From IMG/VR virus record IMGVR_UViG_3300043172_000883, positions 1 through 63,607 of that record: 63,607 bases of DNA; one strand, 5' to 3'. The notes under the pieces were generated by a model. The model was given only the letters and a program-made list of their open reading frames with translations, was not told the DNA's origin and ran no database searches. The position numbers and the translations under genes were made by a program. Source of the DNA: a virus (taxonomy: Duplodnaviria > Caudoviricetes). Below are positions 7,405 through 55,700 of the stretch, one piece after another. Every line of letters starts with the position of its first letter. Position 1 is the stretch's first letter.

Positions 7405-8952
7405 TTGGCACTTTTCAGTCCTCCAGATCAGGAATTAATTTTCGAACCAAATAGTCCACTATCCTTGGCAGCACATCGACAAGCGGCATTTACTCATCTT
7501 CCATATTATCAGAAACATGTTTTGGGTATCGGTATTGCTGATTTCCATGAGGAATGGAATAATCTAGCTATGAACAATCCATATGTGGGTATAATATGCT
7601 CGCGTGGACATATCAAATCAACCTGGTCTCAAAGTCTCAATGCCCAGGAGATGTTGAGCACTCCAGAATTGATCCCGAAAAGTCAGAAACTTTTTCGACA
7701 CTATGAGAATATGACTGTGTGTTATGCCAACGATCAGACAAAAAGATGGCATGAGAATCTTAAATCCATGTTGGAATTCAGTTTTGAGAATCTGGACCTT
7801 GGTTACGAATTTATCAAGGATAATAAACTGGAATTACAACTACGTGGTCGAGCAACCAATGGAAGGGAGAATAAAAGCCAGAGTTTTGGAAAAGGAATGA
7901 CTGGCAATATCCGTATGTCTCATCCCAGTAGGGTCACATGCGATGATATTTTGAATGAACAGATGAGCATCAGTTTTGAAGAAGCTGAACGTAAATTCCG
8001 AGGATCCGTATTGGGGACCATGGTCCCAGGGACACAACTTACCGTGGTAGGAACTATTCTACGTGAGGGTGACATCCTGGATAAAATTAAAAACAAAGAA
8101 ATCGGTGGTCGATTATTCAAAGTAGGTTTCTATCCTGCGATATTGAATAATGAAAAATATGAACTTGGTCTGGAAGAACCACGCGTTTTATGGGAGCACA
8201 AACGACCATTCAGCTATCTTATGGATCAGAAGGATTTACTTGGTGAAATGGTATTTGAGATAGAATTCCTGCTCAATCCAATAAGCGATAAGCTGGCATT
8301 GATACCAAGGCATGTGATGGATACTTGCAAAGATACTAGTCTTATCCTTGGTCGTGGTGCTGCAGAGGGTGCAAAAATTGTCGGTGGTATTGATTTACAG
8401 ATCAGTCCAAGCGATGATGCCGATTGGACCGTTATTGTTTCACTTGAGGTATTGAAAGACAAGTGGAGATTTCTTAATATTCGTAGATTCAGAGGGCTGC
8501 GTTACGATGCACAGTTAAAACAAGTTGATGATGAGTATGGGACCTATAACCACGAATTGATAATTTGCGAGACAAATCAATTCCAAAAAATGTTTGCTCA
8601 GATGCTTGCTGATATGTATGAATATATTCCCATCGAAGAACAAACCACTCATCGATATAATAAACACGATGCCCAAACTGGGATTCCAAGTCTGGCTCAG
8701 TTGTACAGTAAGGGTAAATTGGTAATCCCATGGGGACATAAAGATATTCACACTCCAGAACAAATCAAACATACGCGGGAGATGATGCAAATAGTGATTA
8801 ATGAGGCCGCAAGTTGGCAATATGATAAGGATAAAGGTAAATTTGTATCGCGTGGTAGACATGATGATACGACAATTGGAACCTGGGAGGCAAGTTTAGC
8901 TGCCAGGAAAATAGAAGCTGGTTTCTCTATGAAGATGTTTGGGTCGGTGTGA
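7405..8952 (+). CDS. terL: Terminase large subunit
   Basis: Walker A variant SRGHIKST, Walker B VTCDD, coupling motif VVGT, RNase H-like nuclease GGIDL...D and C-terminal HDD. Confidence 0.92.
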   Translation: MALFSPPDQELIFEPNSPLSLAAHRQAAFTHLPYYQKHVLGIGIADFHEEWNNLAMNNPYVGIICSRGHIKSTWSQSLNAQEMLSTPELIPKSQKLFRHYENMTVCYANDQTKRWHENLKSMLEFSFENLDLGYEFIKDNKLELQLRGRATNGRENKSQSFGKGMTGNIRMSHPSRVTCDDILNEQMSISFEEAERKFRGSVLGTMVPGTQLTVVGTILREGDILDKIKNKEIGGRLFKVGFYPAILNNEKYELGLEEPRVLWEHKRPFSYLMDQKDLLGEMVFEIEFLLNPISDKLALIPRHVMDTCKDTSLILGRGAAEGAKIVGGIDLQISPSDDADWTVIVSLEVLKDKWRFLNIRRFRGLRYDAQLKQVDDEYGTYNHELIICETNQFQKMFAQMLADMYEYIPIEEQTTHRYNKHDAQTGIPSLAQLYSKGKLVIPWGHKDIHTPEQIKHTREMMQIVINEAASWQYDKDKGKFVSRGRHDDTTIGTWEASLAARKIEAGFSMKMFGSV

Positions 8953-10653: not shown

Positions 10654-11880
10654 TTGGTTCAGCTATGGGCTAAGAATAGTACCACCCACATACTATCAAC
10701 AGGTACTTTTAATTTTGATATTGATACTCCCATTGGTACAAGTGTCCAATTACAGGATATTGAGAATGGAGAGACATGCTATTTTTATGAGGATACTGGT
10801 GGAGAGGAAGTACCTTCAGGTCAATGGACTTACAGAGTAAATATAGGAAAGGGCGGTGGTGGTGGTTCAGATCCTACCTGTGATATCACACTTGCTATTA
10901 TCAATTCAAGTGGAGTCATTGTTGATACTATCCTAGGCCCCGACAACTACACTGGGGATGCAAATGCCGGAGTCATCAAAACTAATACAGGGAGTATTGG
11001 AGTTAAGACTATTGGAGCTACTGAGAGAGTAGCATTGATTATAGATAATGTGGTTGCTGGTGCTCGTCAGTTAGAAGTCAGATTTGATGGTGTAACAGAT
11101 GATGACACAGATATTGTCAGACCCCAAACATTAGAAGGTGAGACTTATTATCAACCAATTGATGGTGCACTAACCCCCTCGGGTAGTCTTGCTAAACAGA
11201 CAAGTAAATATCCTGTAGGTGAACTAACATCTAGTGGTGAAGTAGCATCAGCTACCATCTTTAATAAAACAATTGAAGGTGAGTTAACCTCATCGGGTGC
11301 TATAGCAAAACAGACATCAAAATATCCAATAGGTGAGTTAACCTCATCGGGGGCTATAACTAAACAGACAAGCAAATTCCCCGTAGGAGAATTAACCTCA
11401 GTAGGTAGTATAGTCAAGAAAACATTTAAAACATTCACAGGGGCTTTTACTCCAGCAGGTATTGTAGCATCAGCAACCATCTTTATTAAAACATTAATTG
11501 GAACTCTTACAAGTTCAGGTAACGTTAGTAATGCTATGACATATGTCAGAGCGTTTGCTGGTACACTTACAAGTTCTGGTGTTCTTAGTGGCCTTACCAC
11601 ATATATCAGATCATTTGGTGGGACTCTTACCACAACAGGTACTGTTATCAAGAAAACAAGCACATCAATTGCTGGCGTATTGACAAGTGCAGGCACAGCA
11701 ATCAAAAAAGGATTTAAATCATTGCTCGGAACTTTGACAAATTCTGGATCATTGGGTGCTGAGAAACGGGGTGTTATTGAGGTTTTAATAGGTATAACAG
11801 AAGAGGTGTGGGCAATTAAGAATGTTTCATGTTCACTTGTGGCAAATAAAAATATCAGTGATGAGGTTGATATATTTTAG
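10654..11880 (+). CDS. Putative virion fibre/adhesin with G-x-LT-S-S-G repeats
   Basis: About a dozen ~18-22 aa repeats (e.g. GELTSSGAIAKQTSKYPI) in the C-terminal half. Confidence 0.6.
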   Translation: MVQLWAKNSTTHILSTGTFNFDIDTPIGTSVQLQDIENGETCYFYEDTGGEEVPSGQWTYRVNIGKGGGGGSDPTCDITLAIINSSGVIVDTILGPDNYTGDANAGVIKTNTGSIGVKTIGATERVALIIDNVVAGARQLEVRFDGVTDDDTDIVRPQTLEGETYYQPIDGALTPSGSLAKQTSKYPVGELTSSGEVASATIFNKTIEGELTSSGAIAKQTSKYPIGELTSSGAITKQTSKFPVGELTSVGSIVKKTFKTFTGAFTPAGIVASATIFIKTLIGTLTSSGNVSNAMTYVRAFAGTLTSSGVLSGLTTYIRSFGGTLTTTGTVIKKTSTSIAGVLTSAGTAIKKGFKSLLGTLTNSGSLGAEKRGVIEVLIGITEEVWAIKNVSCSLVANKNISDEVDIF

Positions 11881-32109: not shown

Positions 32110-33273
32110 GTGTCGGTTGTCGGTGGTAATGGTGATTATGATCCTGATTGGGATGGATTCAGTAATGTCAGCGGTGATCTACATGGATGGATGGATCCAG
32201 TGGATGGTAGCTCGCGAGGAGCTAAATATAAGATCATTGATGGTCTAGCACATATGTTCTGTGAAAGTGGAGCCTATGGAGCCAGTTGGGCAGATATAGC
32301 CAGTCACTTACCAGCAAATCCTAAACCTGGTCGAACGGTTTTGAGAGTAAACACCGATGAATCAAACGCGGAAAGGCTTTATGTGTATAATGGCGAAACG
32401 ACATCATGGAAATATTTTGATACGCTAGGTGGTGGTGTTACAGACCATCCTTCATTAACTGACAAGAACACTGAAGCTGATATCCAGCACCTCACCGCTG
32501 CACAAGTTGGAGCTTTACATGAAATCTATGTACATCCTACCTCAGATATTAATCATCTCACTGATTCAGAATATGGGGATTTACATTCAATCTATGTACA
32601 TCCCACATCAAACGTAAATCATTTAACAGATATAGAATATGGAGATTTACATGAAAAATGGACGACAGGCAACACAGAAACCGTGATAACAGCAGAATTG
32701 GCAAATGATCAATCTATCGATAATGCTATTGATGGTTTGATCACAACACATAAAAATATTTCAACTGCTCATCATACGAAATACACGGATAATGAAGCAA
32801 AAGCCGCAATAAGAGCAGCCAAATTAGAAGAAGTAGAGGGTAGATTTCCATCGGTACAAGTTGGCAATGGTGCGAGTATACAAGGATACAATAGTCTGTC
32901 TGTAATAAGAATGCCCAACAACGACGCTGATTGCTATTTCAGATTTAATCAGAGAATACCTCGACATTTTGACGATGGTAATATCACTATTAAATTCTTA
33001 TATAGATTATCGTCTGCCAATTTATATAATGTAAAATGGAATATTGATTCTGTTGATAGAATAATCGGAGAACAACTTTCTACTACTCTGAAAAACATAT
33101 TGAATGTATCCACAGCTTATGATTTTCCTGCCGCTACAGCTAATACATGGCGAATACATACTATGAATCTCACTGATGCTGATTTACATGCTGGAGATTT
33201 ATTGGGAATCCAGTGTCTATCTGATGCGAGTAATACAGCGACGTTAGATATATTCGAGATATGGTTGGAGTGA
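32110..33273 (+). CDS. Tail fibre/receptor-binding protein
   Basis: His-containing fibre repeats (HLT, AHHTKYT) and a C-terminal beta domain. Confidence 0.65.
   Translation: MSVVGGNGDYDPDWDGFSNVSGDLHGWMDPVDGSSRGAKYKIIDGLAHMFCESGAYGASWADIASHLPANPKPGRTVLRVNTDESNAERLYVYNGETTSWKYFDTLGGGVTDHPSLTDKNTEADIQHLTAAQVGALHEIYVHPTSDINHLTDSEYGDLHSIYVHPTSNVNHLTDIEYGDLHEKWTTGNTETVITAELANDQSIDNAIDGLITTHKNISTAHHTKYTDNEAKAAIRAAKLEEVEGRFPSVQVGNGASIQGYNSLSVIRMPNNDADCYFRFNQRIPRHFDDGNITIKFLYRLSSANLYNVKWNIDSVDRIIGEQLSTTLKNILNVSTAYDFPAATANTWRIHTMNLTDADLHAGDLLGIQCLSDASNTATLDIFEIWLE
32515..32655 (+). repeat. 66-bp coding tandem repeat (~2.1 copies; LHxIYVHPTSxxNHLTDxEYGD)
   Basis: Units start at 32515 and 32581. Confidence 0.85.
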
Positions 33274-41767: not shown

Positions 41768-42877
41768 TCATTTGCGACCCATCTCCTCTTTCAAATCTGT
41801 CTCACAACAGTATCTGAATTTGCAATATAGCTCACGACATTCCCAAAAATTATTATTACCCAGAAGTGCTCCACGCTGCATGGCAGTAAGTGGGATAATG
41901 GTCCGTTCTTCCTCTGCAGTGAACACGAGATCAAGTTTTTCCTGAAGTGGTTCAAGCCAGCTCTCATCGAAATCTTGCTTGTAATACCTCATCTCGTAGT
42001 TATTACGGTCCATATAGAGTATTGCGCCTTTGATACCGCCGAGTGCAGCTTGATAGCCCAATAACTGTTCGAGATGACCAGCTTTGGGTGTGTATTGGAA
42101 TCCTTTGGTTGATTTGATATCAATTACCACCAGCTCATTATCAACCCTGCATAGCATATCTGGATGGCCTGTCACCTTACCAGGTCGGCCTTTGATAAGT
42201 GCTGTTGGTGGTATATCAAATTCCATATTGATAACAATATCGGATCCCTCAAGCCTTGATTGAATATACTCATGTACTGATTGGCCAGCCTCGGCTTCAT
42301 TTAACACGTCGAGTGATTTATGGCGATAGTGACGATCAAATGATTCTTTGACAATCGCTTTATCAAAATACAGCGTTTTTGGTTTCTTCAGATTCATCTT
42401 GGCAAATTGCATCTTTCGCATACATCCTGGGAGTGAGGACATGCGCTGCGTTCCCTTATCTGGTACGTACCCATGACCAAACTCCCTGTTCTTCTTGTGG
42501 AGCCTCTCACGAATGGCGATGTAAAGCGGATCACTGTTATCCAGGGTTGGTTGTCTACTAACCGCTGCTTTGCTGATCTGACGGAATAATAAAACACCAC
42601 CTTTTTTATTCTTCTCGATGTTGAACCTGCGTTTACCAACACTGTAATCATCACTGGTGGTGGTTTCTCGACCCATAAATTCATATTCTGCAAATGGTAT
42701 AACTGGAGCGTTTTCCAGTGCATGATGACCAAAATAACTTATGATGGCATCGCCTTGAAATGTTGCATGTGCAATCCACATGGGTACATCACCAGGTAGC
42801 ACCATGGCCTTATCCCACTGCGTTGTTACCATTACTTTGTAAAGTAAAAGTTCTGGCATTATTTTTCTTGCCTCCAT
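41768..42877 (-). CDS. Cas4-like PD-(D/E)XK exonuclease with Fe-S cluster
   Basis: SSLPGCMRK, GQSVH, GHPD...VIDIKST, QLLGY, C-terminal EC..YCKFRYCC. Confidence 0.85.
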   Translation of the reverse strand: MEARKIMPELLLYKVMVTTQWDKAMVLPGDVPMWIAHATFQGDAIISYFGHHALENAPVIPFAEYEFMGRETTTSDDYSVGKRRFNIEKNKKGGVLLFRQISKAAVSRQPTLDNSDPLYIAIRERLHKKNREFGHGYVPDKGTQRMSSLPGCMRKMQFAKMNLKKPKTLYFDKAIVKESFDRHYRHKSLDVLNEAEAGQSVHEYIQSRLEGSDIVINMEFDIPPTALIKGRPGKVTGHPDMLCRVDNELVVIDIKSTKGFQYTPKAGHLEQLLGYQAALGGIKGAILYMDRNNYEMRYYKQDFDESWLEPLQEKLDLVFTAEEERTIIPLTAMQRGALLGNNNFWECRELYCKFRYCCETDLKEEMGRK

Positions 42878-43047
42878 TCTTCCTCGGTGGTTTGTTTGGC
42901 TACTGTCTGTCGTACTGCCCTACAATTTTCACACCAGAGTAATGTTGTGTTTATCCACTGTCGCACGGCGCGACCGTTGATCTTGGCACGTTTCCTGATT
43001 TTTGGTATGTATAGCCTTGCATTACACACGTTACACTTAGGATTCAT
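42859..43047 (-). CDS. Small Zn-ribbon protein
   Basis: CNVC...WCENC; TATA ~25 nt upstream (leaderless). Confidence 0.6.
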   Translation of the reverse strand: MNPKCNVCNARLYIPKIRKRAKINGRAVRQWINTTLLWCENCRAVRQTVAKQTTEEEWRQEK

Positions 43048-43098
43048 ATTAGTTATAGCTTGTATTTTGAATATAAAAACTAGGGTATCCCCTAGTGG

Positions 43099-43135
43099 AA
43101 AAATAAATAAAAAAAGTCGGAGGTTTTTAGCCTCC
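43099..43135 (-). terminator. Hairpin plus oligo-T terminator
   Basis: - strand GGAGG CTAAAAA CCTCC GA CTTTTTTTATTTATTTTT. Confidence 0.65.
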
Positions 43136-44096
43136 TTTCGGAAATCGTCATTTCCCTTTGTTAGTTAAAACGAAATTATGGTAATTGGTCTGGTTACATC
43201 CCCTACCACTAAGGGAGTAGTATTGTAGTCACTCCATATTAATCCTTTATTCACACAATTTAGAGAGGGCCAGAGAAGCCGTGCTGAAATCGTTTCTCCA
43301 ACCAGTCTCAGTGAGGATGGTCGATAATCCTCTTCATCATACCCTTGCGGGTACGGGAAGCGACCAACTCTTCCCTTTAGGGGGGTTATTGAAAGGCGGA
43401 GCTTGTGGTCATGTTTCAACCACGCCCGTTATTTCCCATGGGATCAGGGTTTGCCAGCTCCGTTGTAAGAGAGAAGGCGAAAGTTTATCGGTTTAGGATT
43501 GTAAGACAACCTTCTCTGGTTACTGTAAGAGAGAGGGCTTGTACCTTCCTACTAACCCTCTCTTGTTACTGTCAGCCTACTATTGTAAGACCGTAGGCTA
43601 TGGACTGGTATACACTGTCTCGGTAGACCGAGCTTAGGTATTATAAGGGAGAAGGCTGCCATGCATTTTTTTCACAGCTTTATAGGGTGCACCCTAAATA
43701 AACCTTCTCTTTAGTATTGAAGGACTTATGGAGTGACCGTGATGGGGTCAGTACCACCTTCGCAACTACTGTAAGAGAGAAGGCGAGTCCTACTACCACG
43801 AGCTCGAAAGCAATGTGTTCCTTCTCTTGTTACTGTAATCGGGATAAGTCCTGACAGCTACCTTCAATCTATTTAAAGTCAGATCACGACAACCATTCAG
43901 TAGCGTAACTTATCCCTAAGTTGGTATTGTAATGAAAGAAGGGTATTTTTACTACTGGAAACCTTCCCTCGTTACTATAATGGGGACCTACATCCGTGAG
44001 GAATGCCCCTAGTTTTGCCAATGTAATGGGGAAATAGGTTCGTAAACCACATTCCCCGTTTGTGAAGTAGTCAGTTCCACGCTCTGCCTAAGACAT
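43105..44096 (-). ncRNA. Putative ~1 kb structured non-coding RNA (tandem hairpins with UUACARUA linkers)
   Basis: No credible ORF; upstream TTAAATA box; downstream terminator; at least 10 hairpins with repeated GAGAAGG/CCUUCUC stems. Confidence 0.7.
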
Positions 44097-44116
44097 TTAA
44101 TAATACGGGCAACCCC

Positions 44117-44123
44117 TATTTAA
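44117..44123 (-). promoter_or_regulatory. TATA box TTAAATA with A-rich BRE, driving the putative ncRNA
   Basis: AAGAAATAA-TTAAATA; same box at 44343, 44780 and 54802 in front of - strand units. Confidence 0.65.
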
Positions 44124-44144
44124 TTATTTCTTATTTAATAGGAT

Positions 44145-44321
44145 TTATTGTCCAGTAATCTTGATAATTGCCTTGATATATCCATCATAAATGCGTTTTA
44201 TTTCATCGTGAGCTTGTTCTTTTGTATAGCTCCCTTTCAAAGTACTTGCGTCCTTCACAACTTGACCAATCGATCCGAGTGTGAAAGCCAACAAACTGAT
44301 TATATCTGCTGAGTCAGTCAT
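44145..44321 (-). CDS. 58-aa hypothetical protein (MTDSADIISLLAFTLGSIGQVVK...), not in the ORF track
   Basis: Leaderless ATG ~21 nt below the TTAAATA box at 44343-44349; open frame to TAA. Confidence 0.65.
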   Translation of the reverse strand: MTDSADIISLLAFTLGSIGQVVKDASTLKGSYTKEQAHDEIKRIYDGYIKAIIKITGQ

Positions 44322-44365
44322 AGCTAATTATTGGCAATACCCTATTTAATCCTTGCTTATGTTAT

Positions 44366-44734
44366 TTAGTTAGAAGTTTCCACTGATGCTTTTTCTTGTT
44401 TTGCAATCTTTACTAATTCATAGCTTATGATTGCATTTTTTATCTTAATCCATGTCTGTTCATTGAATTTACCATCTGGTAAATCATTGCCTCTTGTCCA
44501 ATCTTCTCCTGCTCTTGGTTTCCTATTCGAAACTTGGCATCCTAAATAATCATTATTGGCTGTAATTGAATATCTATTATTCTTTGTAAAAAAATGGATG
44601 TTAAATTTATCTTTGCGATCTTGTAATATAAATTTAAAATGATCTTCTATATTATTTGTACGATATAATAGTTCACTCAACCAATCTATAAGTTGTTGAT
44701 GTAATGGGGTTAATATTTTATTCATTTGTATCAC
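44366..44734 (-). CDS. Hypothetical protein
   Basis: 122 aa; own TTAAATA promoter at 44780-44786. Confidence 0.65.
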   Translation of the reverse strand: MIQMNKILTPLHQQLIDWLSELLYRTNNIEDHFKFILQDRKDKFNIHFFTKNNRYSITANNDYLGCQVSNRKPRAGEDWTRGNDLPDGKFNEQTWIKIKNAIISYELVKIAKQEKASVETSN

Positions 44735-44802
44735 TTTTATACCGCTAAGCAGCGGTTATATAATAATACGAGAATCAAGTATTTAATATTTTGTTTGTAC
44801 TT

Positions 44803-45153
44803 TTAAGTTAAAACACATTTCATCTCACATTTAAAAATGCGACACATGTTTGGTCTATCCTCATAGATTAAACATTTACTATTAACCGCTAGTGGGCATA
44901 TACGTACGCCCTCCAATACCTCTATTAAAATAAAATCATCATTGAATTGTCTATATGCTTTACCATCATTGTTTCTCTTGTCATAATCTCCATACGGATA
45001 ATCCACTGGATTTACAAATCCGTTCATATTCATATAAAAACAGCATGGAGCCAAACAATCATTACATCTATCTATCCAGTTTTGTCGATATCTGGTTAGA
45101 TTCTTATGCCCTACCATATTATCAAGTTGTCCCCATCTATTCAAAATAATCAC
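44803..45153 (-). CDS. YkgJ/CxxCxxCC-family Fe-S or Zn cluster protein
   Basis: CNDCLAPCC...CPLAVNSKCLIYEDRPNMCRIFKC. Confidence 0.8.
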   Translation of the reverse strand: MIILNRWGQLDNMVGHKNLTRYRQNWIDRCNDCLAPCCFYMNMNGFVNPVDYPYGDYDKRNNDGKAYRQFNDDFILIEVLEGVRICPLAVNSKCLIYEDRPNMCRIFKCEMKCVLT

Positions 45154-45844
45154 CTAACTCCGCATTTTGCCAGTATGGACTAAATCTAACCCAGGGATCC
45201 AAATCACATGCAAATATCTGTGCTCCTCGCCCATATGCCGCTGCTATGCTTGCACCATAACCAGCGAAGGGGTCCAGAATACAAGTGCTTTTCAGATGCC
45301 TAAATAACTCGCTTAGTAATTCTTTAGGCTTGGCCGCTGATCTTGCCAGTTTGGTACTGCCATTTTTGGCCTTACGCATGGGACCAGGCAATGTGATATA
45401 TTTATTGAGAATTTGACCTTTTGGTTTTCCCTTGATTTTCGTTCCTTGAACATAAATATGCTCTCCGTTGTTACGGTCCGCGTTACCAGCTATGGTAATA
45501 TTAATTGGTTTTACCCAGGCATGCTTGCATGCAATATTATCAAGATGTTGTAATCGCTCCTCTTGGCTATGAAAGTGAATGATATAGGTATCTGGTTTGA
45601 TTCTTGATTTGATATAATCAAATATTTTTTTCCTAAGTACTGGATCCATTAATCTAACTGCGGGATTATTCCATGGGACACACGCATCCTTCTTCATCTT
45701 GGTCCTACCATTAACTCGTTCCTCATCTTCTTTGTTGCCAGCATCAAAATAGGGAGGATCCCATACCACCGTATCGATAATGGGCCAAACCTCATCTGGA
45801 ATAGATTTTACGAAATCATATCCATCAATACCAAATTTAATCAA
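45137..45844 (-). CDS. Beta-class amino-DNA methyltransferase (probably N6-adenine)
   Basis: VVWDPPY...KPKELL...ILDPFAGYG. Confidence 0.8.
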   Translation of the reverse strand: MIKFGIDGYDFVKSIPDEVWPIIDTVVWDPPYFDAGNKEDEERVNGRTKMKKDACVPWNNPAVRLMDPVLRKKIFDYIKSRIKPDTYIIHFHSQEERLQHLDNIACKHAWVKPINITIAGNADRNNGEHIYVQGTKIKGKPKGQILNKYITLPGPMRKAKNGSTKLARSAAKPKELLSELFRHLKSTCILDPFAGYGASIAAAYGRGAQIFACDLDPWVRFSPYWQNAELGDYFE

Positions 45845-46009
45845 TCTTAATCACCACTGGTTTACCATTGCTCTTGGACCTCGCATACATATCTAACAAA
45901 TGATCCAAGAAATCATCATGTGTTATATTCTCTCGTCTGAGATCGCCCTTGTGTCGCTCTTTCTTTTCCAAGAATCGCTCATGTGTGGCTCGACTGATAG
46001 TTATCACAC

Positions 46010-46777
46010 TCATATAAAAAACTCCTGCAATGGTCGCGATCTTATTAAAAATTCATCAGAATTAAATTTCAATTGGTGATGTGTGGTTATTTCAATTCTC
46101 TTCAAATATTCTTGGAAATATAACTCAAATTCATGGGTTTTAGCTGATGCCTTTCCAAGCCCGCCTATCCTTGGAAACTTCCAACTCATACTATCAAAAC
46201 TATCTATAATTGCAAAAACGTTTTTCAAATGGTATAATCTCAGACCAAAGGCGTGGATGAAGCTTTCTGGAAATTGTTTTCTCAGGTAGTGCAGGGCATG
46301 TTTAACAAAATCACGGTTCCCACTTTTACACATGGTTCCAACTGCAATCTTATCATGTGGCCCATATTCCTTTTTGAACCAAGTTATAAATTCAACAAAA
46401 CTACCGTAATTATCATAATAGCCTTGGATCACTGGAAGTTGACTAGGATCCTCTGGATTGAATAGATCCATCAAAAGCTGTTTACTATATTCCACATTAT
46501 CAACATCTGTTTTTTTACCAAATTCACCAACCAAGTCTGGACAATCTGGGACCACCTTCCAACCATCAGTTTTCAGATTCTTCCATTTGTTAATTTTTTT
46601 GTCAGAATGCCTATCAGATTTCAGTAAATCATAGATCCCAATATCCACAATCTCATGCTTATAATTCTTCCTTGGTTTTTGTTTGATATTCCGCATGATG
46701 TATGGGTAATCAATCGGTGCGTAAGTATAGAACCTCATAATATCACCCACAATTACCCATATGGCTTTCAATCGCAA
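46010..46777 (-). CDS. TGT/DpdA-like transglycosylase (7-deazaguanine insertion-like)
   Basis: IVDIG, VPD, LPVIQG, IAVG, IHAFG, DSFDSMSW match the TGT/DpdA motif order. Confidence 0.7.
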   Translation of the reverse strand: MRLKAIWVIVGDIMRFYTYAPIDYPYIMRNIKQKPRKNYKHEIVDIGIYDLLKSDRHSDKKINKWKNLKTDGWKVVPDCPDLVGEFGKKTDVDNVEYSKQLLMDLFNPEDPSQLPVIQGYYDNYGSFVEFITWFKKEYGPHDKIAVGTMCKSGNRDFVKHALHYLRKQFPESFIHAFGLRLYHLKNVFAIIDSFDSMSWKFPRIGGLGKASAKTHEFELYFQEYLKRIEITTHHQLKFNSDEFLIRSRPLQEFFI

Positions 46778-47275
46778 TTTTAATCATTTTCAATTGGTCC
46801 TTTGATAATGGTACTTCTTTGGTTTCTTCTTCAATATGACCGCAAATATGAAGATATAAATCTGAGAATTGATATTTTAGTTTCTTCATAATCCTCTCTC
46901 CTCATAGATATCCAGGGTTTGCTCATTATATCTGCATGTTTCACAACACTTGGCAAATCTCCATTTATGGTAGTAGAATTGCTCTCTGCACTTGAAACAT
47001 CGAAGCCTCCAATATTTCTGCTTACGATATCGTGTGGATCTACGCAGTCGTATCAATCTCAAAATCATAATTATCCTCTTCTTCTATTTCTATATTTTGA
47101 TTATAGCGGTCCGCCATGATACCAACCGTTAGGATCCAGATAATCAACACTAGCACAGTCATCTCAAAGGTCCAAGCATCCGAGATTGCTTTTAATATGT
47201 TAACTATGAAAATTATCACGAAGATAAATAATCCTGCGAAGAAAGCAAAGCGAACCCGCTCATATTGTTGCATAC

Positions 47276-47566
47276 TCATCCTTCTTTCCTCCTTATCTGT
47301 CGTCCACTGATCGCAGGATTATATGCAAATTTAATTGCACCATCCCGTATATTTGGGCTAATTATGACCATCATACCATAGATTACTGTTATACCATAAT
47401 CTTGATACAAAATCACATATTCTGGTTTTACACCATGGTTGTGTATTATACGATCCATCCCCTGTTTCACCTCGTATATCATGGCATGGCGTTCCTGATC
47501 AGCTAGCGGTTCAAGCTTCTTCAATTCAGCTTCCAGTTCTTCTATCTTGTCATCTACATTCATCAT
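47276..47566 (-). CDS. Hypothetical protein with a capsid-like C-terminal peptide
   Basis: TVIYGMMVIISPNIRDGAIKF. Confidence 0.5.
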   Translation of the reverse strand: MMNVDDKIEELEAELKKLEPLADQERHAMIYEVKQGMDRIIHNHGVKPEYVILYQDYGITVIYGMMVIISPNIRDGAIKFAYNPAISGRQIRRKEG

Positions 47567-48183
47567 CAGTCATCCTCCAAATCGTACACTTCCAAGGTGG
47601 CTTTATAATATTCATCAAATGTCGCTATTCCTATTTGAACCCATGTTTCATATTTTATATTGTATTTTGTCCCTAATTCTTTCATAATCTTTTCCACATC
47701 ATTTGGTGCTTTGCTAAACCTGATTTTCTCGCCTTTGTAATCCTCTTTTGAAACAAAAAAACTTTTACTTTCAAAAATAGGTTCTATGCTTTTTATCTCA
47801 AACCCTAGCAATCTTAGCTCGAATTCTAGTTCACTTAGTTTCATTAGTTAATCCTCCAAGACATATAAGGTACAATAACACCATCTGGGTTCATTTCCCA
47901 TCTCTTGATATCTTCTAGGATCTCCAGACATATATAAGTAAGGTGTGCTTCGAATGCATTAAATTTTGAATCTACAATTGACCAAACTCCAATTTGTAGT
48001 ACATCCATAAACATTTTACCCGCATAGAAAGTGAAAATATAGTAATAGCCATTCATGGTGAGGCTGGTATCACTCATCACACCAAAATAGAAGAAAGTCA
48101 TCTTCTCAGCCAGTTGTGGTAATTTTCCTATATCTTTTTCTAGGGTTATCTGTCCATGTTCTAAGTCAATCATAATATCACCT

Positions 48184-49479
48184 TCAAAAATATTCCTCCA
48201 AACGATATGATTCTATTTTAGGTTCCAATTTAATAGGTTCTAGCTTAAATGCCTCTTCTAATGTGGTGGCATTTAATATTTTCTCAACCAACGCTGTGTA
48301 AGGAGGCAATGCACCAGCAAACCCTAATACTCTTCTACCTTTTGCAATCAAATCTAATTGTTCTTTGGTCCAATTGGATGAAATATATTGGTTCTTTTTT
48401 AGTGAAGTCAAAGGTTCAAATCTCATTGGATACGATACCACTCCCCATGACATCAAATCTTTTAGTCTGTATAGAAAATCTTCAGGTGTATCTTTATGAT
48501 TGAACAACGTGTAAAATATCATTTTTTGGCCTTTAAACCCTACATCTTTCAGAAATTGAATTCCGTTTTTCACTCCATTCCTTGCTGACTTCGTATCGTA
48601 GGCCAAATGTAAAAATGGTAATTTAATTTCTTTTAAGTTTCTCGCAATTTTTGGTGTGATTAACCTTGCATCCAAACCTTGATTGAAATCTACTTTTTGA
48701 TTGAATTTCTTAAGATCCATTATTACTTGTTCAAAATTCGGTGCAGCTAGTATATTATTATCCCAAATATACACTCGCTTATGGTTTTCGTTCAACATAG
48801 AATAAATATCATTTTTCACACTGTTGATTCGACCCTCAATTTTGGGAACTACACAGAAAGAACATCTCCTTACACAACCCCTTGTAGTGAACAATATATT
48901 GCCGTTCCAATTTGGAACCAAATCATAAGCAGGATTAAGGTTTTCTACTTCCCTAGATAGCCCTACGTGAACTGCATCAGCGCCAGAAAGAGATGCATGA
49001 TCAGGTAATATTGAAGCGTATATTCCTCCAAGAATAATTTTAGCGGTTGGAAAATATTTTTTATATAGTTTAACAGCTTTCCATACTGACCCCCATGACC
49101 ATGTAAATAAACTGGTAATATAAATAATATTCGGATTAAATTTTGGGAATTGAGATCTCTTTTTTTCTTTCAATCTTATTAGTTCAATATTATCCCCGCG
49201 ATTTCTATGAAATGTAGCTATTTTCAATAATCCTAATGGTGGATATTTTGTGTAATAATTTGGTTCAACTAGTAAAACATTCATTTTCTGAGTGAACTCA
49301 AATTTGAATTGTGTCATTAAGTTTTTCACTTTTCCATTTTTTAGTTTATCAGAATACCATACAAAAGGTAAATCATGGCATATTTTACAAACCCATTGAT
49401 AAGGTCCTGTTGTGTAGGGACCAAGCAATATTTCTGTTTTCTGACCACAACAATCACAGTGCGTTTTTATTAATTTCAT
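48184..49479 (-). CDS. Cobalamin-binding radical SAM enzyme
   Basis: PPLGLLKIA, IILGGIYAS (B12 domain), TTRGCVRRCSFC, DNN, DFNQGLDAR. Confidence 0.88.
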   Translation of the reverse strand: MKLIKTHCDCCGQKTEILLGPYTTGPYQWVCKICHDLPFVWYSDKLKNGKVKNLMTQFKFEFTQKMNVLLVEPNYYTKYPPLGLLKIATFHRNRGDNIELIRLKEKKRSQFPKFNPNIIYITSLFTWSWGSVWKAVKLYKKYFPTAKIILGGIYASILPDHASLSGADAVHVGLSREVENLNPAYDLVPNWNGNILFTTRGCVRRCSFCVVPKIEGRINSVKNDIYSMLNENHKRVYIWDNNILAAPNFEQVIMDLKKFNQKVDFNQGLDARLITPKIARNLKEIKLPFLHLAYDTKSARNGVKNGIQFLKDVGFKGQKMIFYTLFNHKDTPEDFLYRLKDLMSWGVVSYPMRFEPLTSLKKNQYISSNWTKEQLDLIAKGRRVLGFAGALPPYTALVEKILNATTLEEAFKLEPIKLEPKIESYRLEEYF

Positions 49480-49483
49480 AGTA

Positions 49484-51223
49484 TCACCTATTAGCAGCTA
49501 CTATCCCCTCTTTTGGACAGAACAACGTTCCATCGGTCAACCACTGTTTAAGCATATCCTCCACATAATCAACATCGATATTGAATGTTTCAGCCATCTC
49601 AAATAATTTAGTCATGGGTGTAAGATCCTCCGCTGTAATACGCAAAACCTCATCACGATAACGTCTACGTATCTCCATATTGTCACCCTCTTTCTCTGGT
49701 TCCTCAAGCGGTGGATCCGCAAAATGCTCGCTTATATCTGAATTCCAGTTAGGATTAATATCATTTAGTTTACTGATGAATAATTCAAACCCACGATAGC
49801 CACGACTGCCTTTATAATTAAATCGCGATATTCGGTTCTTACCATAGAAACTGGTCAATCTCCGACCAATCACGTTAGGTGTGGCACGGTCCGCTTGGAA
49901 CTTAAATCTGAATGCCTCATATGCACGTCTTATTTCAGTGGTCGACACCTCGCCTTCTAGGTTCTCATAGGTGTATCGTTCGATGAATATACCCACGGGA
50001 TCCCTGAAGCTCTCTATAATGGATGCGGATCTATCACTAATACCTGTTTTCAATTCCTGGATCTTATCAATCAGATAAGATAATGATTCGATACACCAAT
50101 TGAATATACCACTCTTTTCTTGCTCCAGTCGATGGGCAAGACCCGTATCATCTTTGGATCCCACGAATTTATTAGGGCAACGTACTATGATAAATCTCCG
50201 TAGCTCACTGTCTTGCTGCAGATTGGGTAATTTGTTGGCAGTGATAACCACTTTGGCATCTATTATCGTTTCATATGGCCTCTGGAATTTGGGATTTACT
50301 GTTATGGGTTCTCCAACAATCAGCGTTTTGATTGCGCTTGTATCCGTCACTGTTTTATTACTCTCACTTGCATAGATGAATTCCTTACCAATCAAGCCTG
50401 CGGTCCCATGCTTATCATCAGCCATCTGATCAAGTCGCATACTGCTATAATTATTGAACATGTTCATCCAGGGTTGCATGATGGTTCCCTTACCATTGGC
50501 CCCATCTCCATAAAGAAACATACATGCTTGCCACTCGAAGAAATTATTGACAAAACTATATGCCATAAAATGCTTGAATAAGCGGCGATCAAGCTGATCT
50601 GGAACCACCTCTTTCAGAGCGGTCATATATTGTGGTGCTTTGGCTTCCTTATCATATTCCAAGTTGAGGCGGCTGGTAAAGCGATATGCACTGTTGAAAG
50701 GCAATAGATTAATAGATTTGGTAAACAGGTTATACTCAACCACTCCATTATTAACATTGAATAATATTATATCACCAACATCCAGCGATAACTTACGACT
50801 GAATGGTGCATAATCGTGATTATAATCCCTCATCTTTAGCATATCATCATAACATATCATCTTGTATTTGGCTACCATATCAGCGATATTCTTAGCACTG
50901 CACAATTTGATATAGTCAACCGTCTTGAGTAACATTATCACGTAATCTGTAATCCAACGATTATCAATATCTAGCTTCCAATACCCCTCAATATTATCAT
51001 AGAAAAGAAAACAATCTCGCTCGCTTATGAATTGGTGTGGATTGCCATCGCTGGTGATTAACTCAATCACTGTCTCACGCACCTCTGCTATACTTGGTGG
51101 TTTAATCCCAGATTTAACAATGATATTGTCAAGATTCATCTCCTTTGGCTCGAATGCTTTGCCCACCGCATCAGGGTTTGCATCCACCGCTTCTGTTATC
51201 TTGTCTAGTAAATCGTTGGTCAT
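49484..51223 (-). CDS. D5/P4-family SF3 helicase without primase domain; C-terminal MCM-like winged helix
   Basis: D5_N-like region, Walker A GDGANGKGT, ASE, ITAN, RRF; C-terminal VEDMLKQWLTDGTLFCPKEG. Confidence 0.88.
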   Translation of the reverse strand: MTNDLLDKITEAVDANPDAVGKAFEPKEMNLDNIIVKSGIKPPSIAEVRETVIELITSDGNPHQFISERDCFLFYDNIEGYWKLDIDNRWITDYVIMLLKTVDYIKLCSAKNIADMVAKYKMICYDDMLKMRDYNHDYAPFSRKLSLDVGDIILFNVNNGVVEYNLFTKSINLLPFNSAYRFTSRLNLEYDKEAKAPQYMTALKEVVPDQLDRRLFKHFMAYSFVNNFFEWQACMFLYGDGANGKGTIMQPWMNMFNNYSSMRLDQMADDKHGTAGLIGKEFIYASESNKTVTDTSAIKTLIVGEPITVNPKFQRPYETIIDAKVVITANKLPNLQQDSELRRFIIVRCPNKFVGSKDDTGLAHRLEQEKSGIFNWCIESLSYLIDKIQELKTGISDRSASIIESFRDPVGIFIERYTYENLEGEVSTTEIRRAYEAFRFKFQADRATPNVIGRRLTSFYGKNRISRFNYKGSRGYRGFELFISKLNDINPNWNSDISEHFADPPLEEPEKEGDNMEIRRRYRDEVLRITAEDLTPMTKLFEMAETFNIDVDYVEDMLKQWLTDGTLFCPKEGIVAANR

Positions 51224-54809: not shown

Positions 54810-55700
54810 CTATGAATCGCGATAGAATTTCATCAGTCATTATTGTAGTAAAATTAACACTTATTTACAGATTTGGTGCATTGAAATACCCACAACAAGT
54901 GCACCGTATTTCCATATATTGGCGCTATTATCCATGGGCATACCACAATTAACCATAATACGCTAAGCATATTTACCGTATTTCGTTGTCACTAATTTAT
55001 ATGTGTTTGCCATATTATTCGTGTATCACTTGGCATATGGGTTGTAATATATTACATTGTCTACTAATACCACTGCATAATTCACAAAACTACAATATCT
55101 GGATTTACTCACCTTTTAGATATTGACAGAGTATTGACGCGTCAATATTGATACAACGCATTATGCGGATCCAAAATATTGCGAGGGTCGTACAAAAGTG
55201 TCTGGCTACGTCTAATACTGGCTAAATCTGAACTTAATTCCGTACGACCCTCGTAACAACGAATTATTGCTCTACATCATTTATATGTATAATGTGTGTA
55301 TGTTACTACTATACTATTATTCATAACTTAATTGTTTACTAAAATATATGGAATACGAGGGTCGTACCAATAGGAGAGCTTAATACCAGATAAACTTGCA
55401 ACTACGGACAAACAACGGATTCTCGACAATCCGCGACATTACGTTGTTTTTCGTACGAAAATAGCATGAATCCGTTGTCTAAAATACTATACTACTGTTG
55501 TAATTCATCATTTCCCATACAAAACTTAACAATATTCCATCAGTACCACTATCAGTAGTAAGTACTACCCGCAGTGGTACTAACAAAAGTAATACCCACA
55601 TCATACACACGTAATACTTATCACTATCCATACTCAAACGGTCATACCCTAATATGTATTACGGGTTCCCCTCGCTTGTCAATATCAAAGTTTTTAAACT
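54810..55700. other. Divergent intergenic region rich in palindromes; candidate replication origin or control region
   Basis: CGAGGGTCGTAC three times (one inverted), TATTGACGCGTCAATA, TTTTCGTACGAAAA, ACAACGGATTC/GAATCCGTTGT. Confidence 0.55.

What the first reader, a model, noticed from the sequence alone, without database searches (positions are those of the whole stretch)
43220..44027. About 14 copies of single-stranded UUACA(G/A)UA: hairpin-ACA (H/ACA-like) boxes or crRNA-handle mimics
Seen (+ strand starts): 43220, 43385, 43461, 43496, 43519, 43565, 43580, 43638, 43714, 43766, 43829, 43924, 43971, 44019. On the - strand most sit right after a hairpin (CUU-ACA-GUA, AUU-AUA-GUA), two sit in loops. 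Established: archaeal H/ACA guides are hairpins followed by ACA/ANA bound by Cbf5; the common crRNA 5' handle is AUUGAAAG, present exactly on the + strand at 43388-43395, with ATTGTAAG/ACTGTAAG variants elsewhere. Inference: pseudouridylation guides or a Cbf5 sponge, an RNA anti-CRISPR (handle or anti-tag decoy), or a CsrB-like sponge for another protein. I saw no clear K-turns, which weakens the canonical H/ACA reading.
Basis: partly seen in the sequence, partly recalled or inferred. Interest (0 to 1): 0.75.

Follow-up and report, generated by a model that had tools for sequence, protein, structure and literature searches.

The report
Repeated-hairpin noncoding RNA of archaeal virus
A one-kilobase gene-free stretch of a marine-sediment archaeal virus most likely makes a folded RNA: a chain of about a dozen hairpins that each end in the same short signal, perhaps a docking platform for a protein, though no relative and no expression data exist.

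Summary
The window is a complete 63.6-kb tailed virus. Its capsid protein matches only archaeal tailed viruses, in 9 of 9 records. The 14 motif copies are real, all on one strand and strongly clustered. They sit at the 3' foot of hairpins far more often than chance allows. The region has 16-26 stop codons in each of the six frames. It is richer in G+C than its flanks. On the minus strand it lies between a TATA-like box and two terminators. My best reading is a roughly 0.98-kb minus-strand structured RNA of at least 11 hairpins. Five of them share a near-identical foot, and the repeats could act as a platform for several copies of a protein. The motif is only partly single-stranded in the folding model: in 6-7 sites its halves pair and only the central A stays free. 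The H/ACA reading is not supported. A link to crRNA tags is not excluded, because archaeal CRISPR repeats ending in ATTGTAAG exist, but it is untested. I found no homologue in Rfam, phage records, viral contigs, metagenome contigs or genome contigs. I therefore have no covariation between species and no expression data.

The parts
44114..44123 (-). TATA-like promoter element (TTAAATAGGG) upstream of the RNA. A purine-rich stretch lies on its 5' side. The inferred start is near 44095.
   Evidence: The exact 10-mer occurs only twice in the window, both times on the minus strand. The other copy, at 44340-44349, lies 21 nt before the ATG of the 58-aa ORF. The start site is inferred from this spacing and was not measured.
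43112..44095 (-). Predicted noncoding transcript of about 0.98 kb
   Evidence: Each of the six frames has 16-26 stops, and no single stop reassignment opens the region. G+C is 0.42-0.48, against 0.28-0.38 in the flanks. Folding z-scores on the minus strand are -3.9 (43440-43990) and -3.1 (43112-43440), against -2.4 and -1.9 on the plus strand. The minus strand has no run of five or more T in 960 nt, whereas the plus strand has a T7 and a T5.
43220..44027 (-). 14 copies of the foot motif YUUACARUA. First bases on the minus strand: 44026, 43980, 43932, 43838, 43774, 43721, 43646, 43588, 43574, 43528, 43504, 43468, 43393, 43228.
44028..44057 (-). Hairpin H0, a 6-bp foot with an inner 4-bp stem capped by a UACG loop, followed by motif copy 1
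43982..44009 (-). Hairpin U1, a 4-bp GGGG/CCCC foot, followed by motif copy 2
43929..43975 (-). Conserved-foot hairpin U2. A GUAA/UUAC base helix, a small internal loop and a 9-bp purine/pyrimidine helix with two G.U pairs. The interior is 19 nt.
   Evidence: model R1 scores it 47.6 bits
43841..43916 (-). Hairpin U3, a different 10-bp foot with a 56-nt interior, followed by motif copy 4
   Evidence: (I10)
43771..43833 (-). Conserved-foot hairpin U4, with a 36-nt interior
   Evidence: R1 scores it 58.6 bits
43643..43713 (-). Conserved-foot hairpin U6, a weaker base helix with a 47-nt interior
   Evidence: R1 scores it 42.9 bits
43574..43599 (-). Hairpin U8, a 7-bp foot whose 12-nt loop holds motif copy 8. 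Copy 9 follows it.
43525..43569 (-). Conserved-foot hairpin U9, with an 18-nt interior. It carries the one compensatory A-U to G-C change.
   Evidence: R1 scores it 51.5 bits
43465..43523 (-). Conserved-foot hairpin U10, with a 32-nt interior that holds motif copy 11. A single A separates it from U9.
   Evidence: R1 scores it 59 bits
43397..43462 (-). Hairpin U11, a 7-bp foot, followed by motif copy 13
43727..43737 (-). 5' arm of an 11-bp perfectly complementary long-range helix. Its partner is 43228-43238.
   Evidence: I4. I estimate about 0.14 such pairs by chance in 1.1 kb.
43228..43238 (-). 3' arm of the long-range helix. Motif copy 14 begins at its last base (43228).
   Evidence: (I4)
43140..43396 (-). 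3' domain without the conserved foot. It holds several local hairpins, one with a GCAA loop near 43348.
43109..43135 (-). First terminator: a 5-bp stem followed by a T7 run
43069..43096 (-). Second terminator: a 7-bp stem followed by a T-rich tail. It overlaps the TATA-like box of the next gene.

Best explanation
The region is the gene for a roughly 0.98-kb virus-encoded noncoding RNA, read from the minus strand (about 44095 to 43112). It starts at its own TATA-type promoter and ends at two tandem terminators, in the early and replication arm of an archaeal tailed virus. The RNA folds into a chain of at least 11 hairpins plus a 3' domain. Every hairpin is closed on its 3' side by the element YUUACARUA. 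Five hairpins share an almost identical foot. This foot is a 4-bp GUAA/UUAC helix, a small asymmetric internal loop, and an 8-9-bp helix with all purines on one strand and all pyrimidines on the other. Their interiors differ completely in sequence and length (18-47 nt). I infer that the repeated foot, with its always-unpaired central A, is a recognition module present in many copies. On that view the RNA binds several copies of one host or viral protein, as a sponge or an assembly scaffold. Shown here: the repeats, their coupling to hairpins, the lack of coding capacity, the composition, and the promoter-like and terminator-like signals. Inferred: transcription itself, the strand, the fold, and above all the protein-binding function. 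The confidence given (0.42) is for the whole statement including the protein-binding function; that a structured transcript exists at all I put at about 0.7.
For: - **Motif clustering and single orientation.** 7 of the 20 minus-strand TTAYARTA matches in the genome fall in 1 kb, with none on the plus strand there.
- **Coupling to hairpins.** The mean upstream stem is 7.57 bp at the motif sites against 5.40 bp at random positions, and 0 of 20000 resamples reached the observed mean.
- **Different feet, same motif.** Hairpins with different foot sequences (H0, U1, U3, U8, U11) are followed by the same motif. That fits a structured strand better than a duplex binding site.
- **The five conserved feet.** 56 of 59 cells pair. 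There is one compensatory A-U to G-C change and two G.U pairs that would be A.C on the other strand. A covariance model built from these five finds only them: 43-59 bits, against a next best of 20.4 bits for their own reverse strands and 18.8 bits elsewhere in the virus.
- **Noncoding.** All six frames are closed.
- **Composition.** G+C is 0.42-0.48 against 0.28-0.38 in the flanks, and GC skew is near zero against -0.1 to -0.3 in the neighbouring minus-strand genes.
- **Folding.** z-scores are -3.9 and -3.1 on the minus strand against -2.4 and -1.9 on the plus strand. Three of four coding controls lie between -1.1 and +0.7.
- **Strand.** Two terminator-like sites on the minus strand stand at the 3' end. 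A TATA-like 10-mer lies upstream, shared only with the next promoter. Runs of five or more T are avoided on sense strands genome-wide (1.15 per kb against 3.61 per kb). The region has 0 on the minus strand, with P(0) = 0.33 at the sense rate and 0.03 at the antisense rate. The plus strand has a T7 in mid-region.
- **Archaeal host.** The capsid protein hits only archaeal viruses, 9 of 9 records. First genes carry an A/T box 20-25 nt before the start codon, and internal genes carry GGAGG.
- **Not an assembly artefact of one pipeline.** One public DNA run holds all sampled words of the stretch, although that run may be the source sample.
Against: - No homologue was found anywhere, so there is no covariation between species.
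- The covariation among the five internal copies does not exceed shuffles (88 of 500 shuffles reach it).
- No RNA run holds the stretch, so expression and strand are unmeasured.
- Minimum-energy folds of the two strands are nearly equal (-309.6 against -307.6 kcal/mol).
- Counts of G.U pairs (40 against 41) and of GNRA/UNCG loops (2 of 9 against 2 of 10) do not separate the strands.
- The motif is not uniformly accessible, which weakens a simple single-strand sponge.
- No candidate binding protein emerged from 54 ORFs scanned against Pfam, nor from the atlas and PDB look-ups of the upstream 122-aa protein.
- One coding control (44400-44950) also folds below its shuffles (-2.7 and -3.4).
- A reading at the DNA level is not excluded.
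Confidence: 0.42

Rival explanations
1. Precursor array. The transcript is cut at the conserved feet or linkers into a set of small hairpin RNAs. Their variable interiors would be the working parts, either guides or decoys, as in CRISPR arrays and the stem-loop arrays of TIGR-Tas systems.
For: Conserved feet and linkers combined with hypervariable interiors is the logic of a processed array. U9 and U10 are separated by a single unpaired A. TIGR stem-loop arrays are tandem hairpins processed at linker regions, and they occur in archaeal viruses (PMC12045711, passages read).
Against: - The Pfam Nop model finds nothing in the six-frame search of the virus, and no nuclease or RNA-binding family appears near the array.
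- Interiors range from 18 to 59 nt and lack the regular box and 8-12-nt spacer pattern that the paper describes.
- Here the stems are conserved, whereas in TIGR stem arrays they are variable.
- The interiors match neither the virus's own genome (top 26.3 bits against a shuffle mean of 27.7) nor archaeal rRNA.
- The foot is not a bulge-helix-bulge motif. Its 4-bp helix is flanked by 1x1 and 2x1 internal loops, not by 3-nt bulges (my reading).
Confidence: 0.15
2. DNA-level element. The 8-mers are iterons, or other protein-binding sites on duplex or single-stranded DNA. They could form a replication origin or cis-replication region for the P4-type primase-helicase encoded 5.4 kb upstream, or a partition or packaging site.
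For: There are 14 same-orientation copies of an 8-9-bp word in 0.8 kb of noncoding DNA, near a DUF5906/P4-type primase-helicase gene. From recall, satellite phage P4 uses clusters of octamer repeats in its ori and crr. Five copies contain the inner palindrome TTAC-N-GTAA.
Against: - The region is G+C-richer than its surroundings and has no A+T-rich unwinding stretch.
- Spacings of 14-165 bp show no helical phasing.
- 9 of 14 sites lack the TTAC-N-GTAA inner palindrome; the five that have it are 43980 (by a G.U pair), 43838, 43774, 43574 (3 of its 4 inner pairs) and 43528.
- Iterons do not explain why stems of different sequence precede each copy, nor the promoter and terminator bracket.
- The switch in gene orientation and skew, together with a separate set of 14-15-nt inverted repeats, lies at 55.2-55.4 kb.
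Confidence: 0.15
3. RNA anti-CRISPR. The repeats imitate the 8-nt 5' tag of archaeal crRNAs (plus strand) or its complement, the anti-tag or anti-repeat (minus strand). They would titrate Cas proteins, mask repeat ends, or mark viral RNA as self for type III systems.
For: - On the + strand 5 of the 14 copies fit AYTGWAAG. These are 5 of the 12 + strand matches in the whole genome.
- Natural archaeal CRISPR arrays with repeats ending in ATTGTAAG exist in a Heimdallarchaeota MAG (L184) and two Pyrodictiaceae-type arrays (L218, L245).
- The virus is archaeal.
- Phage RNAs that mimic CRISPR repeats are known (PMC10651486, abstract seen).
Against: - The likeness is limited to 8 nt.
- The rest of the found repeats is unlike the viral units.
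- No Rfam CRISPR-DR family matches the motif. The only CRISPR row, E = 0.93, lies on another segment.
- No genome among 400 Asgard genomes has more than 4 copies per strand of the 11-mer CTTACAGTAAC. The 19 fetched places (20 occurrences) had no array of motif copies, and most flanks read like ordinary coding sequence.
- The signals favour the minus strand, which carries the complement of the tag.
- A T7 run would stop plus-strand transcription in mid-region.
- The copies vary at tag positions, for example in the last base.
- The host and its repeats are unknown.
Confidence: 0.1
4. Archaeal H/ACA-type pseudouridylation guides, or a decoy for Cbf5.
For: Each unit is a hairpin followed by ACA (10 of 14) or AUA (2 of 14) on the minus strand, and the host is archaeal.
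Against: - No Rfam H/ACA match in the region.
- The ACA lies about 3 nt beyond the stem, and in 6-7 units it is partly paired.
- Interiors of 18-19 nt cannot hold a pocket plus an upper stem with a K-turn.
- K-turn-like patterns are not enriched.
- No complementarity of 11 nt or more to three archaeal 16S and 23S sets. There are fewer 9-mers than in shuffles: 21 against 37.5, sd 6.6.
- From recall, known archaeal H/ACA RNAs have one to three hairpins, not eleven or more on a 1-kb transcript.
Confidence: 0.03
5. No dedicated function. The region is a decaying set of local duplications, or a spacer region whose hairpins serve only as transcript stabilisers or terminator back-ups.
For: The element is a singleton with no homologue in any collection searched. 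Covariation among the copies is not significant.
Against: Duplicated units that decay should lose the feet and the interiors at similar rates. Here the feet are near-identical while the interiors share nothing in length or sequence. A 63.6-kb virus with tightly packed genes keeps 1 kb for it, behind its own promoter-like box.
Confidence: 0.07

Closest known systems
CsrB/RsmZ-type protein-sponge RNAs of bacteria (features recalled, not tested against a model)
   Same: One transcript carries many copies of a short recognition motif, presented by a series of hairpins and ending in a terminator. This is the proposed logic of binding several copies of one protein.
   Different: The motif is a different word, with no GGA. 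It sits at hairpin feet and linkers rather than mainly in loops. The RNA is about three times longer, comes from a virus, and acts in an archaeal setting. No partner protein is known, and no Rfam family matches.
Large ornate phage-associated RNAs (GOLLD, ROOL) in Rfam
   Same: A large (0.6-1 kb), highly structured noncoding RNA encoded by a tailed virus, with unknown function.
   Different: Neither family matches at the gathering threshold or at E up to 10. The host domain is different. The RNA is built from a repeated hairpin module, which I do not recall for those families.
TIGR stem-loop arrays (TIGR-Tas; PMC12045711, passages read)
   Same: Tandem hairpins on one transcript of a viral genome, with variable interiors, linkers between the units and a terminator at the end.
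   Different: No Nop-domain protein was detected. The stems are conserved here instead of variable. The interiors have irregular lengths and lack the box C/D plus 8-12-nt dual-spacer pattern that the paper describes. The paper's supplementary figures and tables with further arrays could not be seen.
RNA anti-CRISPRs (Racrs; PMC10651486, abstract only) and crRNA 5' tags
   Same: A virus-encoded noncoding RNA containing words like the ends of CRISPR repeats. ATTGTAAG is a natural repeat end in archaeal arrays.
   Different: Racrs mimic whole repeats of the host system, whereas here only 8 nt are alike. The host is unknown. The likely transcribed strand carries the complement.
Archaeal H/ACA guide sRNAs
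   Same: A hairpin followed by ACA or ANA, in an archaeal setting.
   Different: No pocket, no K-turn, the ACA does not abut the stem, no complementarity to rRNA, and no Rfam match.
Type III antitoxin arrays (ToxI-like; recalled)
   Same: A tandem noncoding repeat array closed by a terminator, in the context of phage and defence.
   Different: ToxI-type repeats are near-identical units of fixed length placed directly upstream of the toxin gene. Here the unit lengths are 45-94 nt, the interiors are unrelated, and no ToxN-like gene follows. The next genes encode a 62-aa zinc-ribbon protein and a Cas4-like nuclease.

Membership tests
Archaeal H/ACA sRNA | ACA or ANA box directly 3' of the lower stem | tested here: inconclusive
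   ACA occurs in 10 of 14 sites and AUA in 2 of 14, but it starts about 3 nt beyond the stem and is partly paired in 6-7 units.
Archaeal H/ACA sRNA | Pseudouridylation pocket (two-sided internal loop) with an upper stem, 14-16 nt from the ACA | tested here: not met
   Interiors of 18 and 19 nt in U9 and U2. U3 has a one-sided 6-nt loop in the minimum-energy fold. This rests on inspection of predicted folds only.
Archaeal H/ACA sRNA | K-turn or K-loop for L7Ae | tested here: inconclusive
   A loose pattern gives 57 candidates against a shuffle mean of 44 and a maximum of 69, so there is no enrichment.
Archaeal H/ACA sRNA | Guide complementarity to rRNA | tested here: not met
   Against 16S and 23S of three archaeal genomes, there are 21 complementary 9-mers against 37.5 (sd 6.6) in shuffles, and none of 11 nt or more. 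The host's own rRNA is unknown, and two-part pairing was not modelled.
Archaeal H/ACA sRNA | Match to a curated H/ACA covariance model | tested here: not met
   Rfam 15 gives no hit at gathering. At E up to 10 the only H/ACA row is a Tetrahymena snoRNA at 44132-44262, E = 8.2, outside the array.
CRISPR repeat mimic (Racr) or crRNA tag decoy | Sequence likeness to the host's CRISPR repeat over most of its length | not testable with these tools
   The host is unknown. Only the 8-nt end is like known archaeal repeat ends. The 11-mer forms no array in 400 Asgard genomes.
CRISPR repeat mimic (Racr) or crRNA tag decoy | Match to an Rfam CRISPR direct-repeat model | tested here: not met
   The only row is CRISPR-DR57 at 17.9 bits against a gathering score of 39, E = 0.93. 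It lies at 43333-43368, which is not on a motif copy.
CRISPR repeat mimic (Racr) or crRNA tag decoy | The tag-bearing strand is the one transcribed | tested here: inconclusive
   Promoter, terminator and T-run signals favour the minus strand, which carries the complement of the tag. There are no RNA data.
TIGR-Tas stem-loop array | Adjacent Nop-domain (Tas) protein | tested here: not met
   PF01798 gives 0 matches at E up to 10 in the six-frame search of the virus. Divergent Tas proteins found only by structure could escape this test.
TIGR-Tas stem-loop array | Two 8-12-nt spacers flanked by box C/D-like motifs inside each hairpin | tested here: not met
   Interiors are 18-59 nt and share no internal motif. 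The second most repeated word, TAGTAGG (3 copies), is within the shuffle range.
CsrB/RsmZ-type sponge (works-like, not membership) | Many copies of one short motif presented on a hairpin series | tested here: met
   14 copies, 7 of them strict, coupled to hairpins.
CsrB/RsmZ-type sponge (works-like, not membership) | The motif is accessible and a cognate binding protein exists | tested here: inconclusive
   Unpaired probability is 0.47-0.50 against a background of 0.41-0.42. Only the central A is always free. No partner protein was identified.
GOLLD / ROOL large phage RNAs | Match to the Rfam covariance model | tested here: not met
   Searches give no row for either family.
Iteron-type replication origin | Direct repeats next to an A+T-rich unwinding element, usually phased with the DNA helix | tested here: not met
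   G+C is 0.42-0.48, above the flanks. Spacings modulo 10.5 are scattered.
Iteron-type replication origin | Binding by the replicon's initiator | not testable with these tools
   A P4-type primase-helicase is encoded at 49484-51223, but binding cannot be computed.

The most novel reading that the evidence does not exclude
The transcript is the first RNA-based anti-CRISPR of an archaeal virus. On this reading it is a 1-kb RNA that displays about a dozen copies of the complement of the host's crRNA 5' tag at the feet of stable hairpins. It would either mask the repeat ends of the host's pre-crRNA or present viral RNA to type III effectors as 'self'. Natural archaeal repeats that end in ATTGTAAG show that the tag variant the motif would pair with is real.
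Probability: 0.08. Interest if true: 0.85.

Novelty: new variant of a known kind. Interest (0 to 1): 0.55.

Why it matters
I found no report of a large structured noncoding RNA in an archaeal tailed virus. This rests on three full-text searches and passages of one HFTV1 transcriptome paper, which describes antisense RNAs only. If this RNA is real, it would be a new class with an unusually clear modular grammar: a conserved hairpin foot, one always-free adenine, and free interiors. That grammar makes binding experiments easy to design. It would also give a handle on how archaeal viruses use RNA, rather than protein, to capture host or viral factors. If the link to crRNA tags holds, it would extend RNA anti-CRISPRs to archaea.

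Tried and rejected
**Homologue searches that found nothing useful**
- Rfam at the gathering threshold over the whole window, and at E up to 10 over 42900-44300.
- tRNA and tmRNA scan.
- blastn in 'distant' mode against 50,697 phage records.
- Viral contigs pattern ACAGTAACNAGAGARGG: 14 loci with one match each and no further likeness.
I ranked all of them by motif density and read the top 9. They were tandem DNA repeats, coding repeats and one CRISPR array.
- Metagenome contigs pattern for the conserved foot: 11 loci with a single match each. My rough expectation was about 14 by chance, and none resembled the array.
They were coding repeats and CRISPR arrays, with no hairpin chain.
- Covariance model R1 in 151 genomes of the phylum of the Heimdallarchaeota MAG, and in 151 of the phylum of the Methanosarcinaceae MAG. 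Each gave one isolated weak hit (26.2 and 23.3 bits) and no array.
- Pattern YTTACARTA in 29 of the 48 virus records I named as handles. These 48 came from the 80 loci found through the capsid alignment, and 19 of the 48 were not held. All matches were scattered, with no cluster.

**Searches for relatives through proteins**
- The Cas4-like protein has only itself among 5.8 billion proteins.
- The best relative of the primase is 31% identical.
- The search for related loci with the Cas4-like protein, the primase and the capsid protein found nothing.
- The DUF5131 protein has relatives at 67% and 63% identity, and the capsid protein at 45-53%.
- The three IMG/VR loci found with the 67% relative share no other gene with the window.

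**Expression.** No RNA holder is listed. Only one DNA run, from a marine sediment metagenome, holds the stretch, and it may be the source. I did not use read laying, because contigs of one DNA run cannot show strand or ends.

**Ideas considered and dropped**
- A coding region under another genetic code.
- Antisense regulation of the virus's own genes.
- rRNA guide.
- Extended palindromic protein sites.
- Strand assignment from G.U counts or from tetraloop classes. Neither separates the strands.
- A second loop motif, TAGTAGG. It is not above shuffles.
- A bulge-helix-bulge motif at the foot, by inspection.
- A K-turn at the C-box-like word at 43334-43340. The spacing is off by one base, by inspection.
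- A partner-protein lead from the 122-aa upstream ORF. The atlas score of 0.81 is below the usable range, and the PDB hits have E of 0.02 or more on a 30-residue stretch.

Full report
**What the window is.** The 63,607-bp window is a complete IMG/VR virus record with direct terminal repeats. It encodes a large terminase, a portal protein, an HK97-type major capsid protein, a tail tube and a tape measure protein on the plus strand. Between about 35 and 54 kb, on the minus strand, it carries an early and replication arm. That arm holds a P4-type primase-helicase, a B12-binding radical SAM enzyme, a DpdA-like transglycosylase, methylases, a Cas4-like PD-(D/E)XK nuclease and a weak Rad52-like protein. 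In 50,697 phage records the capsid protein matches only archaeal tailed viruses: eight Haloarcula virus records at 34-36% identity and one Methanofastidiosa virus at 27%, so 9 of 9. First genes of gene blocks carry an A/T box 20-25 nt before the start codon and no Shine-Dalgarno word, whereas internal genes carry GGAGG (my reading). From recall, that is the pattern of archaeal leaderless transcripts. The terminase's weak likeness to Bacteroides phages (26%) and the mostly bacterial names among DUF5131 homologues point the other way but are weak. I take the host to be an archaeon. The only run holding the DNA is from a marine sediment metagenome.

**The observation.** The 14 sites are there. 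On the minus strand they read YUUACARUA and all point the same way. The strict word TTAYARTA occurs 7 times in this 1 kb, out of 20 on that strand in the whole genome, and none occurs on the other strand of the region. TCTTACA occurs 5 times, more often than any heptamer in any of 300 shuffles. The sites are tied to structure. The best stem ending 0-3 nt before a site averages 7.57 bp, against 5.40 bp at 3000 random positions, and none of 20000 resampled means reached that value. Two sites lie in loops.

In the partition function the nine bases are unpaired with probability 0.47-0.50, against 0.41-0.42 for the RNA as a whole. At 6-7 sites the UUAC half pairs with a GUAA half on the far side of the neighbouring hairpin. 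Only the fifth base, an A, is free, in 13 of 14 sites (local model) or 12 of 14 (global model).

**Anatomy.** The stretch 43050-44145 has 16-26 stops in every frame, and no single stop reassignment opens it. G+C is 0.42-0.48 against 0.28-0.38 in the flanks. GC skew is near zero, while the neighbouring minus-strand genes run at -0.1 to -0.3. Read on the minus strand, the region is a chain of hairpins: H0, U1-U4, U6-U11.

Five hairpins (U2, U4, U6, U9, U10) share one foot. It consists of a 4-bp GUAA/UUAC helix, a small internal loop, and an 8-9-bp helix with all purines on the 5' strand. In an alignment of the five, 56 of 59 cells pair. There is one double change (A-U to G-C in U9) and two G.U pairs in U2. 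With five sequences this is no better than shuffles (88 of 500), so the feet are conserved in sequence rather than covarying. Their interiors, by contrast, share nothing and measure 18, 19, 32, 36 and 47 nt. A covariance model of the foot finds exactly these five at 43-59 bits and nothing comparable elsewhere in the virus.

The other hairpins have unrelated feet yet are followed by the same motif. An 11-bp perfect long-range helix (43727-43737 with 43228-43238) closes the 3' two-fifths of the RNA.

**Strand and transcription.** None of this was measured. The signals favouring the minus strand are as follows.
- All neighbouring genes lie on it.
- Two terminator-like hairpins with T runs stand at 43135-43109 and 43096-43069.
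- The 10-mer TTAAATAGGG occurs exactly twice in the window. One copy lies 21 nt before the ATG of the upstream 58-aa gene, and the other at 44114-44123, which would start the RNA near 44095.
- Across the virus, runs of five or more T are three times rarer on sense strands than on antisense strands (1.15 against 3.61 per kb). The region's minus strand has none in 960 nt, while its plus strand has a T7 in the middle.
- Folding z-scores are lower on the minus strand: -3.9 and -3.1 against -2.4 and -1.9.

Some tests do not separate the strands. Total folding energies are -309.6 against -307.6 kcal/mol. G.U counts are 40 against 41. Special tetraloops number 2 of 9 against 2 of 10. One coding control also folds below its shuffles.

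**What it is not.**
- It matches no Rfam family and holds no tRNA.
- It is not an H/ACA guide set. The ACA does not abut the stem, two interiors are too short for a pocket, K-turn-like patterns are not enriched, and complementarity to the 16S and 23S rRNA of three archaea is below shuffle level.
- It does not fit the TIGR-Tas stem-loop arrays described for phages and archaeal viruses (PMC12045711, passages). No Nop-domain protein is detectable, the stems are conserved instead of variable, and the interiors lack the regular dual-spacer pattern.
- It has no antisense target in its own genome.
- As a DNA element it lacks an A+T-rich core, helical phasing and extended palindromes. The switch in orientation and skew, with its own inverted repeats, lies at about 55 kb. 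Even so, a cluster of 8-mers near a P4-type primase-helicase gene keeps an iteron reading alive at about 15%.

**The CRISPR lead.** On the plus strand 5 of the 14 copies fit AYTGWAAG, and these are 5 of the 12 such words on that strand genome-wide. A scan of one genome per prokaryotic species for three phased copies of the complement returned genuine CRISPR arrays whose repeats end in ATTGTAAG. One is in a Heimdallarchaeota MAG and two are in Pyrodictiaceae-type contigs. It also returned bacterial arrays ending in ACTGTAAG. The tag variant is therefore natural in archaea.

Beyond those 8 nt, however, the repeats are unlike the viral units. The 11-mer form makes no array in 400 Asgard genomes. 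The likely transcript carries the complement of the tag. I keep this reading at about 10% and name it as the most novel reading not excluded.

**Relatives.** None could be read. The virus is an orphan at the level of its early genes. Capsid relatives in IMG/VR are only 38-41% identical, and the 29 records that could be searched whole show no motif cluster. Closer relatives exist in the protein libraries: capsid at 45-53% and DUF5131 at 63-67%. Their contigs were out of reach.

**Verdict.** The best explanation is a novel, modular, roughly 1-kb structured RNA of an archaeal tailed virus. I put about 70% on a structured transcript existing at all. Its repeated hairpin foot, with a free adenine, most likely serves as a recognition module present in many copies, about 40-45% for protein binding or scaffolding. 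Rivals are a processed array (15%), a DNA-level site cluster (15%), an anti-CRISPR RNA (10%), no function (7%) and H/ACA (3%). Interest is moderate to high. The design is unusual and directly testable, but it rests on one sequence, with no homologues and no expression data.

Noticed in passing
window 55179-55367: Three copies of a 14-15-nt element, as inverted and direct repeats of GTACGACCCTCGTA, in the roughly 1.5-kb gene-poor region where gene orientation and GC skew switch. This is a candidate operator or origin.
   Followed up: no
window 42859-43047 (-): A 62-aa basic ORF with two CxxC pairs (zinc-ribbon-like, with a weak sub-threshold DUF6431 hit). It has its own TATA-like box directly after the RNA's terminators, and could be tested as a nucleic-acid binder.
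   Followed up: partly
window 43308-43340 (-): A single C-box-like word (ATGATGA, 43340-43334) and a CTGA (43311-43308) flank a 6-bp hairpin in the 3' domain. The spacing is one base off a canonical K-turn.
   Followed up: partly
window 44400-44950: Very low G+C (0.28-0.30) and folding energies below shuffles on both strands (z of -2.7 and -3.4), inside small ORFs of unknown function just upstream of the RNA.
   Followed up: no
window 45137-49479 (-): A DNA-modification cluster: a DpdA-like transglycosylase, a B12-binding radical SAM enzyme and a methylase-like protein. It suggests 7-deazaguanine-type modification of the viral DNA.
   Followed up: no
L184 (Heimdallarchaeota MAG contig), about 7150-8000 on its reverse strand: A CRISPR array of at least 11 units with a 37-nt repeat. 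The repeat's first 8 nt are nearly the complement of its last 8 nt, and it ends in ATTGTAAG.
   Followed up: partly
L086 (an IMG/VR viral contig), reverse strand, about 1600-2800: A CRISPR-like array of about 15 units with a 36-nt repeat and spacers of 35-39 nt, carried on a viral contig.
   Followed up: no
window 44089-44097 (-): At the inferred start of the RNA stands a two-codon mini-frame (ATG TCT TAG). It is probably a coincidence.
   Followed up: no
window 11277-11400 and 32508-32656: Tandem repeats of 54 and 66 bp (2.3 copies each) inside structural genes.
   Followed up: no
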